A stretch of DNA of 64,000 bases from a phage. The stretch lies in sequence record PZ402305.1. One strand, written 5' to 3'. Position 1 is the stretch's first letter. The number at the start of each line of letters is the position of its first letter. Shown here piece by piece: positions 7,863 through 14,180 of the stretch. The notes beneath the pieces were generated by a model, which did not search any database, was not told where the DNA came from, and saw only the letters and a program-made list of their open reading frames with translations. The position numbers and the translations under genes were made by a program.

Positions 7863-8350
7863 TGGAAAGTGAGATCTTACCAGGTGACGATACAGATTGG
7901 GAAACCATTATCAAAAAGATGATGGACCTTGAACAAGTTCAAATCGAAGCTGGTTTTTTAACAAACAAAAGGCATCCTGAATCAGATCTCACTATTCCTG
8001 CAATAGCAGCTATTCAACAATATGGTAATGAAACAAATAACATACCTGCTCGCCCTTTTATAACAGATGGTGCTGTTATCTCACAGAACAATATCGCTAA
8101 AAAGATGAAGCAGGTGTTTGCAAATTACTTAATGAATAATGTCGGGTTAGCTGTTTTTGAGCCTATAGCGAGAGCCTCTAGAGAAGGAATAGCTCAAGCG
8201 ATTGCAATGCAACGTTATCGTCCTTTATCTCCTGTGACAATTAAGATACGACAAGATAAAGGCAACTATTCTAATCATATCTTAATAGATACGGCACACA
8301 TGATAAATGCAATCGAAACAAAAATCACAAAAAGCAAGTCTAAAAAATAA
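7862..8350 (+). CDS. Hypothetical neck protein
   Basis: 162-aa ORF; TAATG start/stop overlap with upstream gene. Confidence 0.55.
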   Translation: MESEILPGDDTDWETIIKKMMDLEQVQIEAGFLTNKRHPESDLTIPAIAAIQQYGNETNNIPARPFITDGAVISQNNIAKKMKQVFANYLMNNVGLAVFEPIARASREGIAQAIAMQRYRPLSPVTIKIRQDKGNYSNHILIDTAHMINAIETKITKSKSKK

Positions 8351-9477: not shown

Positions 9478-10851
9478 ATGGCAACTTTTCGTGAAAAGGT
9501 AGCAACCGTAACTTTACTGTATGGTGCTACATCAATTCGTGAAACCCAGTTCGATATTCCCCTGATCCTTACAGGTCAGAACGTAACTGGCGAAGCGATT
9601 CAATATTACTCTTCTTCCGATGCACTTTTGGAAGCAGGTTATGGATTAAATGATCCAGCGTATATTATGGCAGTCAAACTGTTTAACGGTTTGTTCCCAC
9701 CAGATCAAGTTATGGTTGGTAAGCGTGAAGTTACAAACTTTACTCTAACTCCAATCGTAGAAGATAGTGCAACTTACACAATTACCATCAAAAATGGTAC
9801 CAAGAAAAAAGAATTTAAATTCATTGCTGATGACACTGCAACTGCACAAGAGATTGTAGTTGGTCTGACTGAAATGATCAATGCAGATCTTGTTTATGGC
9901 CCACTGTTTACAGTAGCTAACAACGGCGCTGCAATGACTTTCACTCCAGTAGAAGGTAAGTTTGGTTCTATTGACAGCACAGGTTTCACTCAAGAAACTG
10001 TCTATGCTAATGCTATTACGGAAGATATTGCTGCTCTGCATGATATTGATAGTAGCTGGTTCTGGACCCTTTCAGATTCCCATGAAACAGAAGATGTTCT
10101 AGCTTTGGCTGCATGGGTAGAAGAGAATGATAAAGTTTACTTCTTCTCTAGTTCTGAACCTGGAATTAAAACGAAAGCAGAAGATAACGTTCTGGAACGA
10201 CTGAATGACCTCGGTTATAATAACACTTGCTTTGCTTTGTGGATGACCGATGCAGATTCTGTATTCCCAGAAGCAGCAGTTGTTGGTGCAATCTGTTCTC
10301 GTCAACCTGGTTTAACTACTCTTCACGGTAAAACACTGGTAGGTGTAGAGATCGAGAAACTGGATCAGACTTCGGAAAACAATATTGTTCAACAGAACGG
10401 TAACATCTATCGTAAAGAGCATGGAACTCTGTTCTATCGTGATGGATTGATGGTTAGCGGTTTCTTTGTTGACTATGTTGTTCATGCTTTGTGGTTTAAA
10501 GCTCGCACAGAAGAATCACTGTTTACACTGTTTAAACAACAGTCTATGCTGGGTGGTGGTGTTCGTGCTACTTCAAACGGTCTGGCTTTGATTCGACAAG
10601 CTGTTCTGGCTAACCCGATCCAAGTAGGTATCCTCAACGGTTCCATCGCTAATGAAGTTGTTACTTCTGAAGAGACTGGTTTGCGTGTCGATCTGAAACC
10701 TATTGTTTATATTCCTTCTCGTGCCGATATGACTGATGCGCAAATCAATGCTCGTCTGGTCGATGGGATGAAGATTGAATATGTTTACGCTGGCTTCTTC
10801 CATTACGTTAAAGTTCAGGTCAACGTCCTGACTAACCGTACTGCAAACTAA
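9478..10851 (+). CDS. Tail sheath protein (putative)
   Basis: 457-aa ORF directly upstream of a ~160-aa tube-like gene, chaperone and tape measure; followed by a hairpin. Confidence 0.6.
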   Translation: MATFREKVATVTLLYGATSIRETQFDIPLILTGQNVTGEAIQYYSSSDALLEAGYGLNDPAYIMAVKLFNGLFPPDQVMVGKREVTNFTLTPIVEDSATYTITIKNGTKKKEFKFIADDTATAQEIVVGLTEMINADLVYGPLFTVANNGAAMTFTPVEGKFGSIDSTGFTQETVYANAITEDIAALHDIDSSWFWTLSDSHETEDVLALAAWVEENDKVYFFSSSEPGIKTKAEDNVLERLNDLGYNNTCFALWMTDADSVFPEAAVVGAICSRQPGLTTLHGKTLVGVEIEKLDQTSENNIVQQNGNIYRKEHGTLFYRDGLMVSGFFVDYVVHALWFKARTEESLFTLFKQQSMLGGGVRATSNGLALIRQAVLANPIQVGILNGSIANEVVTSEETGLRVDLKPIVYIPSRADMTDAQINARLVDGMKIEYVYAGFFHYVKVQVNVLTNRTAN

Positions 10852-10897: not shown

Positions 10898-11377
10898 ATG
10901 GATAAAATGCTTACTGGCGTAATGGCCTACGACCCATCTCAAGTTATCCTTTCATTAGGTGGTTGGGAACCGTGGGGTTTTGCGGCTGATACTAAAATCG
11001 TTATTGCTAAATCTAACGATATTATCAACCCTTATTCAGGGACTGATGGCGACGTTTCACTAGCTTTGAGTCGTAACCGTTTGGGAACACTCACAATGTC
11101 TTTGCAACGCACATCTCCAGCTAACGAAGTACTTGCAACATATGCACAAACAATGTATTCTACTCGTCAAGTAGCGTTCAGTGTTTATTTAGAAGACCCA
11201 CGTGGCTATTACATTAGCACGATTGGATGGATTCAAAGTCAGCCTGAAGATACTATTGGCGAAATGATTACAGAGAACCAATGGGTTATTGGTCTTAAAG
11301 ATGCAAGCCTTCTGCGTAATGAAGTTGGTGTAGGTTTGAGCACCCTTAACTCAATCTCTGCTCTGACAATTCAATAA
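10898..11377 (+). CDS. Tail tube protein (putative)
   Basis: 159-aa ORF between sheath and chaperone genes; followed by intrinsic terminator. Confidence 0.55.
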   Translation: MDKMLTGVMAYDPSQVILSLGGWEPWGFAADTKIVIAKSNDIINPYSGTDGDVSLALSRNRLGTLTMSLQRTSPANEVLATYAQTMYSTRQVAFSVYLEDPRGYYISTIGWIQSQPEDTIGEMITENQWVIGLKDASLLRNEVGVGLSTLNSISALTIQ

Positions 11378-11383
11378 TAAATA

Positions 11384-11404
11384 AAGGGCAGAAATGCCCT
11401 TTTT
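11384..11404 (+). terminator. Rho-independent terminator after tube gene
   Basis: aagggca-gaaa-tgccctt stem-loop followed by tttt. Confidence 0.65.
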
Positions 11405-11422
11405 ATCATTAGAGAGGAAAAT

Positions 11423-11905
11423 ATGTCACAAGAACAAGATAACACAATTCAAAAATATGCTCGACCAGAAGAAGTAGTTGAGATTCCGTTAGATGGAAAC
11501 AGATCTGTTACTTTCCGTATTATGAAGTGGAGTCCATCTAAAGTGTTTGACAGGATTCCAGAATTGGGTAGTGTTCTGGTTGTTCCTATGACTATGTATA
11601 GCACAGCAACAATGTCCGCAGACGAAGACCTTGAGTCACGTATTGCTATGGCACTGATCCAACTTTTTGCAGGTTTGGAAGAAAAGAATTTAACGGTCTT
11701 TTTGCGTAAAATTTTAGATGAGGTTTATACTCAAGACGGTTATAACGTTGCAGAAAATTTTGATGAATTATTTATGGCTCACCCAGAACTAGTGTTAGAT
11801 CTTACTGCTAAAGTTCTGGAGGTAAACTACGGCCCTTTTTTCAAACGAGGTTTCGGAAAACTGTTCACACAGCTTCAGGCGATGACGAGTTTAGCAGCAA
11901 ATTAA
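11423..11905 (+). CDS. Tail assembly chaperone (short, G-like product)
   Basis: 160-aa ORF immediately upstream of tape measure gene; contains slippery heptamer near 3' end. Confidence 0.6.
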   Translation: MSQEQDNTIQKYARPEEVVEIPLDGNRSVTFRIMKWSPSKVFDRIPELGSVLVVPMTMYSTATMSADEDLESRIAMALIQLFAGLEEKNLTVFLRKILDEVYTQDGYNVAENFDELFMAHPELVLDLTAKVLEVNYGPFFKRGFGKLFTQLQAMTSLAAN

Positions 11906-12171
11906 CACCTGCGATTGAACATGCTATCGACATAGCAACGAAAACCCTTACTTTGAAGTGGTATGAGGTTATTCTTTGCAAAGTCGTTAAAGATACCTCG
12001 GAAACACTGAAAACATTGGATAACTACGGTGTAGATTATCTTTTAAAACTATATGAGTATTTAACATACGAAGAGTATGTTGAAGCCATGTATGTTAAAG
12101 ACACTTCAATAAAGAGAAAACATCAAAACCAGACAAATAAAATGTCAGATTTGTTTAAGAAACTTGTTTAA
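11423..12171 (+). CDS. Tail assembly chaperone, -1 frameshifted long (GT-like) product; shift at 11836-11842
   Basis: The -1 frame is open from 11764 to 12171 and overlaps the 3' end of the zero frame; slippery T_TTT_TTC in the overlap; predicted fusion about 249 aa. Confidence 0.5.
11836..11842 (+). other. Programmed -1 ribosomal frameshift slippery heptamer T_TTT_TTC
   Basis: X_XXY_YYZ heptamer in the zero frame of the chaperone gene (codons TTT TTC = Phe139-Phe140). Confidence 0.5.
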
Positions 12172-12191
12172 TCCAACACGAGGAACATACT

Positions 12192-14180
12192 TTGTTAGAA
12201 ATTAACGCCTCCAAAATTAGTAACGTGGTTACGTTTAAGGTGGACAAGAACAGTCTCAAGGAAGCAAAAGATGCCGTGTTGAGTGTTCAGAAGTTTGCAA
12301 ATAAAATGCAACCCACTATGAACATGACCAAGTTTAGACAACAAATGAAAGAGATTGAGCGTGAACTTAAGAAAGCTCAAACTCAAAGTCAAAAACCTAT
12401 GCGAGCACCTACTCCCGCTGGAGCGGGTGCTCCTGTAGGCGGATCTGGTAGACCTAGAACTCCTAAAACCCCGCAAGGAAGAGAAGAAGAAAAAGCTCGT
12501 AAAGCTGCTGAACGCGAAGCTAAAGCAGCAGCACGTAGGGAAGATTTAGGTAATCTTCGTTTGCAGAACTTTAACTATCGAGCAAGAGCATTTAGTAAAG
12601 CTAGTCCTGGCGCTATGCAAGAAGCTAGAGACGTTATGGGTAAAGCTGTAGAGCAATACAAAAAGGGTGAAATAACTCTTCAACGTATGAACCAAGCTCT
12701 TGCTCACCAGTTGGATGCTTTACGCAGATCTCATCGTGAAAAGAATGCTGAAATAGAAGACGAGGTTCGCGGTCGTCGCCGTATTCGTAGAGAGTTAGAA
12801 GCAGAAGCTAAAATGCGTATACGTATGCGAAATCGTGAACTTAGGGATATAGAACGAAATCGTAAGCGTGAATTAGCACAACAAAAACGTGATCGTGACC
12901 GTAGATATGGACAATTAAAAGAAGGTGCAGCAGGTCTTAATCCACGTATGATTGCATCCTCTTTGATAGGTGCTGGGCTGTTTGCAGGTGGTTCTGTAGT
13001 TGGTAACACGTTGATGAATACTAACGAAAGAATTAAACTTGTAAGCCGTGGTGCTGAAAACGTTCAGACAAACGCCAACGCTATTTTGGCAATGACAGCT
13101 TGGGGTGAACAGAACGGTGTAGACTCTGCAAATATTATTAAATCAATAGATAATATTAAAGACGTTCGTGAACGTCTTGGTAATACAGTTTTAGCTGCAA
13201 AGTGGAATGAGAAAGAAGGGAAGTGGAAAGGCGGTGATAATGGCATAACTGACATTATGAACTTGTTTGGATGGAATCCAGAACAGCTTAAACCTTTACA
13301 GAACGATCCTTTAGCTTTTATTCAGGCTACTGTTAATGAAGGTGAGCGTCGAGGTATGAACTCTGCTCAAATCGGGCGACTTCTTGAAAACCTTGGTGAT
13401 GACCTTATGCACTACCAACGTATGTTTAGTAAAAACGGCGAAGGGTATAATGAAGTATTGAAAATGCTTCAAAGAACAGGTGCAACATTAACTCAAGAAC
13501 AAATAGATGCTTCTAAAGAGTTTACTCGTTTTGCTGCAACAGTTCAGCTTGTAGGTCAAGGTATGCAGAACCATTTCTTAGAGGGTTTTGTAAAAGCTTT
13601 ACCTAAAGATGATTCTTGGTTGGATAACGTTAAAGTGCTAGATCAGTTCGCCAAAGATTTAGGTGAAGAACTTGGTAAAACAACAGTTCAACTTGGTGGT
13701 TTTGCTAAAGAATTAGGAGATGGTTTCGGATCTTTTACCAATTGGCTTAAAGAAACATTCCCAGATACCTTCGGAGACAACACAGATCCTAATAAATCTT
13801 TGGCACAAAAAGCATACGAGGCAACGCAAAGTGGAGACAGCAATCCTGTAGCAGATTGGTTGTACAATTTAACAGGTATTGATACACAAGATATTGGTCG
13901 TATGTGGAGAGGAGAACAAACAAGGACACGTGCTTTTGGATTTGGTAATCCTCTTGAAGATTTACGTGAATCAGCCTATACACCTAACGTAAGTTTGGCT
14001 CGTAATCAACCTGTTGTTGAGAATACGGTAGCAATACCAAGTGATCTTATCAAAGTTACGATCAGCCCTTCTTCCGAGTTTGGAAATATTCTTGATGCAA
14101 GAATTCAAAATAGCGGAAATAGTATTTTCCAACGTTTGTCTCTTTCAACTCTAAGTGGACAATCTAACACTGGTGGTTAA
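12192..14180 (+). CDS. Tail tape measure protein
   Basis: 662-aa ORF after chaperone pair; Arg/Glu-rich coiled-coil N-terminal half and hydrophobic glycine-rich segment (IGAGLFAGGSVVG); TTG start with GAGGAA RBS. Confidence 0.7.
   Translation: MLEINASKISNVVTFKVDKNSLKEAKDAVLSVQKFANKMQPTMNMTKFRQQMKEIERELKKAQTQSQKPMRAPTPAGAGAPVGGSGRPRTPKTPQGREEEKARKAAEREAKAAARREDLGNLRLQNFNYRARAFSKASPGAMQEARDVMGKAVEQYKKGEITLQRMNQALAHQLDALRRSHREKNAEIEDEVRGRRRIRRELEAEAKMRIRMRNRELRDIERNRKRELAQQKRDRDRRYGQLKEGAAGLNPRMIASSLIGAGLFAGGSVVGNTLMNTNERIKLVSRGAENVQTNANAILAMTAWGEQNGVDSANIIKSIDNIKDVRERLGNTVLAAKWNEKEGKWKGGDNGITDIMNLFGWNPEQLKPLQNDPLAFIQATVNEGERRGMNSAQIGRLLENLGDDLMHYQRMFSKNGEGYNEVLKMLQRTGATLTQEQIDASKEFTRFAATVQLVGQGMQNHFLEGFVKALPKDDSWLDNVKVLDQFAKDLGEELGKTTVQLGGFAKELGDGFGSFTNWLKETFPDTFGDNTDPNKSLAQKAYEATQSGDSNPVADWLYNLTGIDTQDIGRMWRGEQTRTRAFGFGNPLEDLRESAYTPNVSLARNQPVVENTVAIPSDLIKVTISPSSEFGNILDARIQNSGNSIFQRLSLSTLSGQSNTGG

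What the first reader, a model, noticed from the sequence alone, without database searches (positions are those of the whole stretch)
11423..12171. Programmed -1 frameshift in the tail assembly chaperone gene
Between the tube and tape-measure genes, the -1 frame is open from 11764 to 12171 and overlaps the 3' end of the 160-codon chaperone ORF. A slippery heptamer T_TTT_TTC (11836-11842) sits in the overlap in the correct register. This matches the conserved G/GT-type frameshift of tailed-phage chaperones and predicts a low-abundance fusion of about 249 aa that the ORF track reports as two separate ORFs.
Basis: partly seen in the sequence, partly recalled or inferred. Interest (0 to 1): 0.4.

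Follow-up and report, generated by a model that had tools for sequence, protein, structure and literature searches.

The report
Tail chaperone -1 frameshift, phAPEC8-like phage
An E. coli phage of the phAPEC8 group almost certainly makes a second, longer form of its tail-assembly chaperone by a ribosome slipping back one base on UUUUUUC; this is the ordinary lambda-type trick, is kept unchanged in every relative examined, and is missing from the database annotations.

Summary
The window is a Phapecoctavirus (phAPEC8-like myovirus, 99.8% identical to vB_EcoM_UP17). Between the tube gene and the tape-measure gene lie a 160-codon tail assembly chaperone gene (11423-11905; Pfam Phage_TAC_15, E 1e-23) and a -1-frame open stretch, 11812-12171.

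The heptamer T_TTT_TTC (11836-11842) is in register inside the overlap. It predicts a 249-aa, 28.8-kDa fusion (..NYGPFF/QTRFRK..).

In one genome the heptamer could be chance: about 12% for any in-register heptamer in 31 codons. Comparison makes the case:
- All 52 related loci examined carry the same in-register heptamer and a 108-149-codon -1 frame. They comprise 27 distinct sequence contexts from Stephanstirmvirinae and Vequintavirinae, down to about 25-30% chaperone identity.
- The annotated start codons of the small downstream ORF are not conserved, have no Shine-Dalgarno sequence, or are absent.
- Protein-level conservation runs upstream of those starts to the chaperone stop.

No RNA stimulator was found. 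No inspected GenBank record and no database protein carries the fusion. A homologous site (GTTTTT) was proposed in 2025 for the related Vandenendeviridae and Andersonviridae.

It is a new member of a known kind, useful for annotation and of low surprise.

The parts
11423..11905 (+). Tail assembly chaperone gene (the 'G' or TAC-N form): 160 aa, 18.2 kDa, stop TAA at 11903-11905.
   Evidence: ORF listing. Pfam PF21822 Phage_TAC_15, E 1.3e-23, 84 bits against a cut-off of 22. PHROG 3840 'tail assembly chaperone', E 2.8e-55. GAGAGG lies 6-11 nt upstream of the ATG.
11836..11842 (+). Slippery heptamer T_TTT_TTC, the proposed site of the -1 slip. The P-site and A-site tRNA-Phe move from UUU/UUC to UUU/UUU. 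Base 11842 is read twice.
   Evidence: Register read from the sequence. Invariant and in register in 52/52 related loci, 27 distinct contexts. The motif class is efficient in E. coli (PMC4066793).
11833..11839 (+). Overlapping second canonical heptamer C_CCT_TTT. It would yield the same fusion protein.
   Evidence: Present in all Stephanstirmvirinae loci, but replaced by TGT or AGT in nearly all Vequintavirinae-like loci, so it is not the conserved element.
11842..12171 (+). -1-frame coding extension (the 'T' or TAC-C part): 109 codons plus stop TAA at 12169-12171. The full fusion is join(11423..11842,11842..12171), 249 aa, 28.8 kDa.
   Evidence: Translation. Homologous -1 extensions of 108-149 codons occur in all relatives. 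tblastn of the fusion finds two-piece matches covering both parts in Stephanstirmvirinae and Vequintavirinae. PHROG 16039 and 10409, function unknown, match the C-terminal part.
11906..11952 (+). Stretch annotated as intergenic between the chaperone stop and the TTG. It behaves as coding sequence in the -1 frame (..TPAIEHAIDIATKTLT..).
   Evidence: The protein alignment is conserved across it. Pairwise differences by codon position 1/2/3 are 90/51/153. pN/pS is 0.47 in the -1 frame, against 1.01 and 1.78 in the other two frames.
11953..12171 (+). The 72-codon 'hypothetical protein' ORF as annotated in GenBank relatives (TTG start). It is most likely only the 3' part of the frameshift product.
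   Evidence: Annotated as a separate CDS in phAPEC8 and others. No SD in the 25 nt upstream. Annotated starts fall at different alignment columns in different phages, and slur16 and Hena1 have none.
11818..11823 (+). SD-like GGAGGT 12 nt upstream of the heptamer, a possible 5' stimulator of the dnaX type. This is inference only.
   Evidence: Sequence. GAGGT or GGAGG is present in most Stephanstirmvirinae and in rV5-like phages, but absent in Mydo, CR8 and ChuuTotoro. It is therefore not a conserved requirement, and it is also constrained by the Leu-Glu-Val coding.
11849..11856 (+). Conserved GGTTTCGG, coding G-F in frame 0 and R-F-R in frame -1. It contains an in-register U_UUC tetramer (11851-11854), a weaker alternative slip site.
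   Evidence: The -1-frame R-F is kept in 23/23 distinct relatives and in KPP10. The 0-frame F becomes L (GGTTTA/GGTTTG) in rV5-like phages and in L036, which removes the good tetramer.
11383..11402 (+). Terminator-like hairpin with a T-run between the tube gene and the chaperone gene. Context only: it may lower chaperone transcription relative to the tube gene.
   Evidence: The same element is annotated as a putative terminator in phAPEC8 NC_020079.
10898..11377 (+). Tail tube gene (context).
   Evidence: PHROG 280. Pfam KPP10_Orf10, 24.4 bits, just under the cut-off of 25. Annotated as tail tube in SKA64, REC and 05F01. The rV5/phi92 tube was identified by proteomics (PMC3606486).
12192..14180 (+). 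Tape measure protein gene (context).
   Evidence: PHROG 16051 'tail length tape measure protein', E 0. GAGGA lies 8-12 nt upstream of the TTG start.

Best explanation

Proposed mechanism:
- Most ribosomes translate 11423-11905 and release the 160-aa chaperone.
- A minority slip back one base when tRNA-Phe occupies both the P site (UUU, 11837-39) and the A site (UUC, 11840-42). Both tRNAs then re-pair perfectly with UUU/UUU.
- Decoding continues at CAA (11842) in the -1 frame to the stop at 12169-71. The product is a 249-aa protein with the same 140 N-terminal residues and a new 109-residue C-terminal domain.

By analogy with lambda gpG/gpGT and P2 gpE/E+E', the common N-terminal part should coat the tape measure protein (gene 12192-14180). 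The rare C-terminal extension should recruit the tube protein (gene 10898-11377), so that the fixed low ratio of long to short form sets up correct tail assembly.

What is shown: anatomy, register, conservation, and a coding signature in the -1 frame upstream of any start codon. What is inferred: that the slip occurs, its efficiency (probably a few percent, with no RNA structure to boost it), and the binding roles of the two parts.
For: 1. Identity and context. The window is 99.8% identical to Phapecoctavirus genomes. Gene order is sheath (DUF3383), tube, TAC (PF21822, E 1e-23; PHROG 3840, E 3e-55), -1 ORF, TMP (PHROG 16051).

2. T_TTT_TTC is in register and inside the overlap.

3. Conservation of the heptamer.
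- It is present in 8/8 Stephanstirmvirinae (phi92, phiWec188/181, KP2025, phi1_175008, 05F01, KP13-16 and the window).
- It is present in 6/6 Vequintavirinae (slur16, Hena1, Mydo, SSE121, CR8, ChuuTotoro).
- It is present in 38/38 IMG/VR loci.
- Position X is a 0-frame synonymous site and is always T, although the codon is CCT, TGT or AGT. Other third positions nearby are only 37-85% conserved.

4. The downstream frame is always -1, is 108-149 codons long, and ends just before the TMP start in the loci where that was measured.

5. Independent initiation does not fit.
- TTG 11953 has no SD, whereas the G, tube and TMP starts all have GAGG 7-9 nt upstream.
- Annotated starts differ in codon and alignment column between phages and are absent in slur16 and Hena1.

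6. Coding signature upstream of those starts: conserved peptide PAIxxAxxxAxxTLxL. Codon-position differences are 90/51/153. pN/pS is 0.47 in the -1 frame only.

7. The -1-frame R-F(-R) motif 2-4 codons after the heptamer is kept in all relatives and in KPP10, even where the 0-frame residue changes. This places the shift upstream of the motif, at the heptamer.

8. U_UU.U_UU.C and C_CC.U_UU.U fall in the H_HH.U_UU.Y class, among the most efficient -1 motifs measured in E. coli (PMC4066793).

9. A homologous site (invariant GTTTTT, -1 frame uninterrupted) was independently proposed for the related Vandenendeviridae and Andersonviridae (PMC12846349; Moogle, PMC4319497). KPP10 shows it at the equivalent position.
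Against: - There is no direct evidence of the fusion protein. No proteomic or reporter data were found for this clade.
- No 3' stimulatory RNA structure was found. Folding z-scores were -0.49 to +1.04, and RNAalifold found 0 conserved pairs in 12 sequences.
- The upstream SD-like GGAGGT is not conserved across the clade. Efficiency may therefore be low.
- In-register heptamers are not rare in this AT-rich genome: 81 in 19,459 codons, 5 of them TTTTTTC.
- Part of the nucleotide invariance downstream of the heptamer can be explained by dual coding alone.
- The IMG/VR loci were partly retrieved with a peptide pattern that contains the two Phe residues. That biases residues, though not codon choice.
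- None of 17 inspected GenBank records annotates the slippage, and no fused protein appears among 41 homologues in a 5.8-billion-protein collection.
Confidence: 0.85

Rival explanations
1. Two independent genes. The 72-codon ORF 11953-12171 is translated on its own from the TTG start, or by re-initiation after the chaperone stop, and the heptamer is incidental.
For: This is how GenBank records annotate it. The PHROG 16039 profile corresponds exactly to the 72-aa ORF. In-register heptamers occur by chance in about 12% of overlaps of this size.
Against: - There is no SD before the TTG, unlike the three neighbouring genes.
- The start position and start codon are not conserved, and rV5-like and Hena1 records have none.
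- Amino-acid conservation and third-position bias continue upstream of every candidate start, through to the chaperone stop and into the overlap.
- The heptamer is invariant at synonymous sites in 52/52 loci.
Confidence: 0.05
2. The frame change is made by RNA polymerase, not by the ribosome. Transcriptional slippage on the T6 run would delete one U, or add two, in a fraction of mRNAs.
For: The shift site is a homopolymer run. U7 and A7 runs are under-represented in E. coli genes, possibly because of transcriptional slippage (PMC4066793). A mechanism other than ribosomal frameshifting has been suggested for T4-like chaperones (title of Vladimirov et al. 2022, cited).
Against: - The run is only 6 T here and 5 T in the homologous KPP10 site. 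From general knowledge, efficient slippage by bacterial RNA polymerase needs runs of about 8-9 or more.
- What is conserved is the exact reading register X_XXY_YYZ. That matters for tRNA re-pairing and not for polymerase slippage.
Confidence: 0.04
3. Ribosomal -1 frameshifting occurs, but at the downstream in-register U_UUC tetramer (GGT_TTC, 11851-11854) and not at the heptamer. The product would be ..FFKRGF/RKTV...
For: GGTTTC is conserved 6 or 9 nt after the heptamer in 21 of 23 distinct relatives and in KPP10. U_UU.C is the second-best tetramer in E. coli when a stimulator is present (PMC4066793).
Against: - rV5-like phages and L036 have GGTTTA or GGTTTG, which are poor tetramers, yet keep the -1-frame R-F.
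- Without a stimulator, tetramers are barely shifty, and no stimulator was found.
- This site cannot explain the invariance of the synonymous T at 11836 or of TTT rather than TTC at 11837-39.
Confidence: 0.05

Closest known systems
Phage lambda gpG/gpGT tail assembly chaperones (Levin et al. 1993; Xu, Hendrix & Duda 2004, 2013, 2014; summarised in PMC5009743)
   Same: - Two overlapping ORFs lie between the major tail (tube) gene and the tape measure gene.
[quoted passage not shown]
- The long form shares the N-terminal domain.
- No RNA stimulator was found here. From memory, lambda needs none either.
- The expected roles are that G coats the tape measure and T recruits the tube subunit.
   Different: - The heptamer is U_UUU_UUC (tRNA-Phe), not G_GGA_AAG (tRNA-Lys).
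- The phage has a contractile tail with a sheath.
- No sequence similarity to lambda G or T was detected. The chaperone falls in Pfam Phage_TAC_15, and the T part has no Pfam family.
- Nothing has been tested experimentally.
Phage P2 gpE / gpE+E' (myovirus chaperone frameshift; mentioned in PMC5009743)
   Same: Both are contractile-tailed phages. The position between the tube and tape-measure genes is the same. The slip is -1 on a U-rich heptamer (T_TTT_TTG in P2, from memory).
   Different: The protein family is different. P2 efficiency is reported as 2-3 times that of lambda, and efficiency here is unknown.
TAC-N/TAC-NC -1 frameshift proposed for Vandenendeviridae (Pakpunavirus Adele, KPP10-like) and Andersonviridae (Moogle-like) at an invariant GTTTTT motif (PMC12846349; PMC4319497)
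   Same: - The tail module is homologous: DUF3383 sheath, KPP10_Orf10-type tube, and a chaperone with weak similarity to the KPP10 chaperone (BLASTP E 6e-4).
- The slip run sits at the equivalent place after the ..N(Y/F)G.. motif.
- The same -1-frame T-R-F-R motif follows directly after the slip site.
- The downstream piece is routinely mis-annotated as a separate hypothetical protein.
   Different: - Here the run is a full canonical heptamer, U_UUU_UUC. KPP10 has only GUUUUUC, an A-site tetramer with imperfect P-site re-pairing.
- The published analysis did not cover Stephanstirmvirinae or Vequintavirinae for this feature.
E. coli dnaX -1 frameshift (A_AAA_AAG with an upstream SD-like stimulator and a downstream hairpin)
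   Same: Both are -1 slips on a homopolymeric heptamer in E. coli. An SD-like GGAGGT lies 12 nt upstream in the window. From memory, this is within the spacing range that stimulates dnaX frameshifting.
   Different: There is no downstream hairpin here. The SD-like element is not conserved among relatives. The outcome is an extension, not a truncation.

Membership tests
G/GT-type tail assembly chaperone frameshift (Xu et al. 2004) | The gene pair lies immediately between the major tail/tube gene and the tape measure gene, on the same strand. | tested here: met
   Tube 10898-11377, TAC 11423-11905, -1 ORF to 12171, TMP 12192-14180. The order is the same in 15 annotated relatives.
G/GT-type tail assembly chaperone frameshift (Xu et al. 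2004) | The second ORF overlaps the 3' end of the first in a shifted frame and has no credible translation start of its own. | tested here: met
   The frame is -1 and the overlap is 91 nt. There is no SD before TTG 11953. Starts are not conserved or are absent in relatives.
G/GT-type tail assembly chaperone frameshift (Xu et al. 2004) | A shift-prone sequence in the correct register lies within the overlap. | tested here: met
   T_TTT_TTC at 11836-11842, with overlapping C_CCT_TTT. Both belong to an efficient motif class in E. coli.
G/GT-type tail assembly chaperone frameshift (Xu et al. 2004) | The arrangement and slip site are conserved among diverged relatives. | tested here: met
   52/52 loci, 27 distinct contexts, two subfamilies, chaperone identity down to 24-39%.
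G/GT-type tail assembly chaperone frameshift (Xu et al. 2004) | The first ORF product belongs to a recognised tail assembly chaperone family. | tested here: met
   Pfam PF21822 Phage_TAC_15, 84 bits against a cut-off of 22. PHROG 3840, 1613, 1688 and 11820, all 'tail assembly chaperone'. No solved structure matched by sequence, and the single-sequence model was unusable (pLDDT 46).
G/GT-type tail assembly chaperone frameshift (Xu et al. 2004) | A fusion protein is made at a low fixed ratio, and both forms are required for tail assembly but absent from virions. | not testable with these tools
   This needs western blot or mass spectrometry of infected cells, plus genetics. No published data for this clade were found.
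Vandenendeviridae/Andersonviridae GTTTTT chaperone frameshift (PMC12846349) | A T-run slip motif lies near the 3' end of TAC-N, with an uninterrupted -1 frame across the 'intergenic' stretch to the tape measure gene. | tested here: met
   The window has CTTTTTTC and Vequintavirinae have GTTTTTTC. The -1 frame is uninterrupted in all 52 loci. KPP10 has GTTTTTC at the equivalent site.
Vandenendeviridae/Andersonviridae GTTTTT chaperone frameshift (PMC12846349) | The chaperone and its extension are homologous to those of that clade. | tested here: inconclusive
   Window G against KPP10 G gives only a local BLASTP match: residues 108-141, 32% identity, E 6e-4. The shared post-shift TRFR motif and shared Pfam families for sheath and tube point to common ancestry. 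No profile-profile test of the T parts was run.
Structure-stimulated -1 PRF (IS3/IS911 or dnaX type) | A stable hairpin or pseudoknot starts 5-9 nt 3' of the heptamer. | tested here: not met
   Minimum free energies are no better than shuffles, with z from -0.49 to +1.04. RNAalifold found 0 pairs in 12 sequences.

The most novel reading that the evidence does not exclude
The invariant U6C and the nearly invariant GGUUUC 6-9 nt downstream are retained from Stephanstirmvirinae and Vequintavirinae to KPP10-like phages. They persist although chaperone identity falls to about 25-30%, and no RNA secondary structure is present.

They may together form a structure-independent frameshift cassette. One possibility is that the downstream linear element, or the nascent/encoded R-F-R motif, itself tunes slippage. 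Another is that a second low-level slip site sets the ratio of long to short chaperone. Either would be a kind of 3' stimulator not yet described for phage chaperone genes.
Probability: 0.08. Interest if true: 0.45.

Novelty: new member of a known kind. Interest (0 to 1): 0.25.

Why it matters
- Annotation. All 17 GenBank/RefSeq records inspected, which span phAPEC8-, phi92-, rV5- and PVP-SE1-like therapeutic-candidate phages, either list a spurious 'hypothetical protein' or leave a gap of about 315 nt where the C-terminal domain of the long chaperone is encoded. A join(11423..11842,11842..12171)-type feature would correct this.
- Evolution. The finding extends the recently proposed T-run chaperone frameshift of Vandenendeviridae and Andersonviridae to two more large subfamilies. 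This supports one ancestral slip site kept at nucleotide level across a very old myovirus tail module.
- Phage engineering. Recoding or codon-optimising this gene would destroy an essential signal.
- It does not change what is understood about frameshifting or tail assembly.

Tried and rejected
- Downstream RNA stimulator. Folding of 35-118-nt segments after the heptamer, in the window and three relatives, was no better than shuffles. RNAalifold on 12 sequences predicted no pairs. Rejected.
- Upstream SD-like stimulator. It is present in the window (GGAGGT, 12 nt upstream) but absent in several Vequintavirinae. Kept only as a possible local enhancer.
- Search for an already deposited fusion protein or a natural in-frame fusion. 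The 249-aa fusion was searched against 5.8 billion proteins. All 41 hits were chaperones of 158-175 aa covering 57-64% of the query. None found.
- Solved structures by sequence: none at E <= 1.
- AlphaFold2 of the fusion without an alignment gave mean pLDDT 46 and an all-helical low-confidence C-terminal part. It was not used and no fold search was run.
- Literature on Phapecoctavirus, Stephanstirmvirinae, Vequintavirinae, phi92 and rV5 frameshifting found no report for these clades. The rV5 'gp133' seen in proteomics is an unrelated gene.
- First attempts at scripted analysis failed. One had a file-layout problem and one a register bug in the heptamer scan. They were corrected.
- Chance explanation. 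It is plausible for one genome (12%) but rejected by the conservation data.
Full report
**What the window is.** Region 10898-12400 is 99.4-99.8% identical to many Phapecoctavirus genomes (phAPEC8, ESCO5, vB_EcoM_UP17 and others; Stephanstirmvirinae; about 150-kb myoviruses of E. coli). The local gene order on the + strand is:
- sheath, 9478-10851 (Pfam DUF3383);
- tube, 10898-11377 (PHROG 280; KPP10_Orf10-like);
- a terminator-like hairpin, 11383-11402;
- a 160-codon gene, 11423-11905 (Pfam Phage_TAC_15, E 1.3e-23; PHROG 3840 'tail assembly chaperone', E 2.8e-55);
- a 72-codon TTG-initiated ORF, 11953-12171, with no Pfam match;
- the tape measure gene, 12192-14180 (PHROG 16051)

.

**Checking the observation.**
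- The 0-frame codons are CCT TTT TTC (11834-11842), so T_TTT_TTC at 11836-11842 is in the X_XXY_YYZ register.
- The downstream ORF is in the -1 frame.
- A slip gives ..NYGPFF/QTRFRK.. and a 249-aa, 28.8-kDa protein, against 160 aa and 18.2 kDa for the unshifted form.

One coordinate is wrong. The -1 frame has a TAA at 11809-11811, so it is open only from 11812, not from 11764, and the overlap is 91 nt. The heptamer still lies inside the overlap.

The run is actually CCCTTTTTTC, so a second canonical heptamer, C_CCT_TTT, overlaps the first and would give the same protein.

On its own this is weak evidence. In long ORFs of this 39%-GC window, in-register XXXYYYZ heptamers occur once per 240 codons. 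That gives about 12% for any such heptamer in a 31-codon overlap, and about 0.8% for TTTTTTC.

**Comparative evidence.** I collected the homologous region from three sources:
- 7 diverged Stephanstirmvirinae: phi92, phiWec188, phiWec181, KP2025, phi1_175008, 05F01 and KP13-16 (73% nucleotide identity, down to patchy matches);
- 6 Vequintavirinae: slur16 (rV5-like), Hena1, Mydo, SSE121, CR8 and ChuuTotoro (24-31% chaperone identity);
- 38 IMG/VR contigs

.

In all 52 loci, which make 27 distinct 70-nt contexts, three things hold:
- The same T_TTT_TTC is in register and lies inside the overlap.
- The downstream frame is -1 and is open for 108-149 codons.
- Where the distance was measured, the open frame ends 20-66 nt before the tape measure start

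.

The first T of the heptamer is a synonymous third position of a codon that is itself variable (CCT, TGT or AGT), yet it is always T. The first Phe codon is always TTT, never TTC. Other third positions nearby are 37-85% conserved. C_CCT_TTT is confined to the Stephanstirmvirinae-like loci, so the universal element is U_UUU_UUC.

One caveat applies. One of the two peptide patterns used to fetch the IMG/VR loci contains the Phe-Phe pair, which biases residues but not codon choice.

**Is the small ORF a gene of its own?** The evidence says no.
- The chaperone, tube and tape measure starts each have GAGG 7-9 nt upstream. TTG 11953 has nothing comparable.
- In relatives the annotated start is TTG or ATG at residue 31, 32, 38, 40, 49, 66, 80 or 86 of the aligned extension.
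- The slur16 and Hena1 records annotate no ORF at all. That leaves about 315 nt of 'intergenic' DNA that is fully open in the -1 frame.
- The aligned extension is conserved upstream of all these starts (PAIxxAxxxAxxTLxL, directly after the chaperone stop).
- In those 16 codons, pairwise differences fall 90/51/153 on codon positions 1/2/3 of the -1 frame. pN/pS is 0.47 in that frame, against 1.01 and 1.78 in the other two.
- Inside the overlap, the -1-frame motif R-F(-R), 2-4 codons after the heptamer, is kept in every distinct relative. It is kept even where the 0-frame Phe becomes Leu, in the rV5-like phages and L036.

The -1 frame is therefore translated from a point upstream of that motif. 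This points to the heptamer and not to the weaker in-register U_UUC tetramer at 11851-11854.

**Mechanism.** tRNA-Phe on UUU (P site) and UUC (A site) can re-pair perfectly one base back, on UUU/UUU. The systematic E. coli study of Sharma et al. places H_HH.U_UU.Y, which includes both heptamers here, among the most efficient -1 motifs. It also lists U_UU.U_UU.C among motifs that shift above 0.1% without any stimulator and are under-represented in E. coli genes (PMC4066793).

I found no 3' stimulator. Folding energies of the 35-118 nt after the site are no better than shuffles, with z from -0.49 to +1.04. RNAalifold finds no conserved pair.

An SD-like GGAGGT lies 12 nt upstream in the window, which resembles the dnaX arrangement. 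It is absent in several Vequintavirinae and is confounded by the Leu-Glu-Val coding.

I therefore expect a low, structure-independent efficiency, as in lambda. There the G:GT ratio is about 30:1 and that ratio is what matters for tail assembly (PMC5009743).

By that precedent, the shared N-terminal domain coats the tape measure protein and the rare C-terminal domain recruits the tube protein. These roles are inferred and were not tested here.

**Rivals.**
- Independent initiation is contradicted by the start-codon and coding-signature data above.
- Transcriptional slippage is unlikely on a run of six T (five in KPP10). It also does not explain why the reading register is conserved.
- A shift at the U_UUC tetramer is contradicted by phages that have lost it.

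Each rival is given about 4-5%.

**Comparison with what is known.** The kind is well known: lambda G/GT, P2 E/E+E', and the survey by Xu et al. 2004.

A 2025 paper on Pseudomonas phage Adele argues for a conserved -1 frameshift at an invariant GTTTTT in the chaperone genes of Vandenendeviridae and Andersonviridae. It notes that the downstream piece is routinely mis-annotated, and it recognises Vequintavirinae and Stephanstirmvirinae as related clades, but it does not analyse this feature in them (PMC12846349). The Moogle genome announcement already mentions the frameshift (PMC4319497).

KPP10 has GTTTTTC at the equivalent place, a 100-codon -1 frame and the same T-R-F-R after the site. The present site is therefore very probably the same ancestral one.

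For the phAPEC8, phi92 and rV5 groups:
- I found no paper reporting the frameshift.
- None of the 17 inspected records annotates a joined CDS.
- No fused protein appears among the database homologues.

**Verdict.** It is a new member of a known kind. Its value lies in annotation and in showing how old and how rigid this slip site is. Surprise is low.

**What did not help.** The PDB sequence search found no match. The single-sequence structure model had a mean pLDDT of 46 and was unusable.

Noticed in passing
window 11383-11402 (+ T-run to about 11407): A terminator-like GC hairpin (AAAGGGCAGAAATGCCCTTT followed by a T-rich tail, TTATCATT) lies between the tube gene stop and the chaperone start. 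The same element is annotated as a putative terminator in phAPEC8. It may lower chaperone and tape measure transcription relative to sheath and tube.
   Followed up: partly
window 11849-11856; relatives L004-L016, L018-L055; L017 about 8026-8032: GGTTTC(G) lies 6 or 9 nt after the heptamer and is conserved across Stephanstirmvirinae, Vequintavirinae and KPP10. It encodes G-F in frame 0 and R-F-R in frame -1. Dual coding can explain it, but a role in frameshifting has not been excluded.
   Followed up: partly
GenBank MG065650, MG065639, MG065656 and others ('Campylobacter phage'); OP562383 ('Acinetobacter phage vB_AbaM_ABPW7'): Records labelled as Campylobacter or Acinetobacter phages match coliphage sequence in this region. 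MG065650 and OP562383 are 99.6-99.7% identical to the window. MG065639 and MG065656 are about 74.6% identical, as the phi92-like coliphages are. The host labels look doubtful.
   Followed up: no
L011 (slur16, NC_028248) 1360-1673; L012 (Hena1, MN732867) 1354-1678: These Vequintavirinae records leave about 315 nt between the chaperone and tape measure genes without any annotated ORF. The stretch is open in the -1 frame and encodes a conserved domain.
   Followed up: yes
GenBank PV659873.1 (Escherichia phage WPEC1, 161,280 bp): The chaperone-region query matches 7 separate places in this record, and the best match is split into 2 pieces. This may be duplication or misassembly.
   Followed up: no
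window 12192 (tape measure start) and 11953: The tape measure gene starts with TTG preceded by GAGGA. The window uses TTG starts for real genes, so the TTG start of the 72-codon ORF is not in itself evidence against it. What counts against it is the lack of an SD and of conservation.
   Followed up: yes
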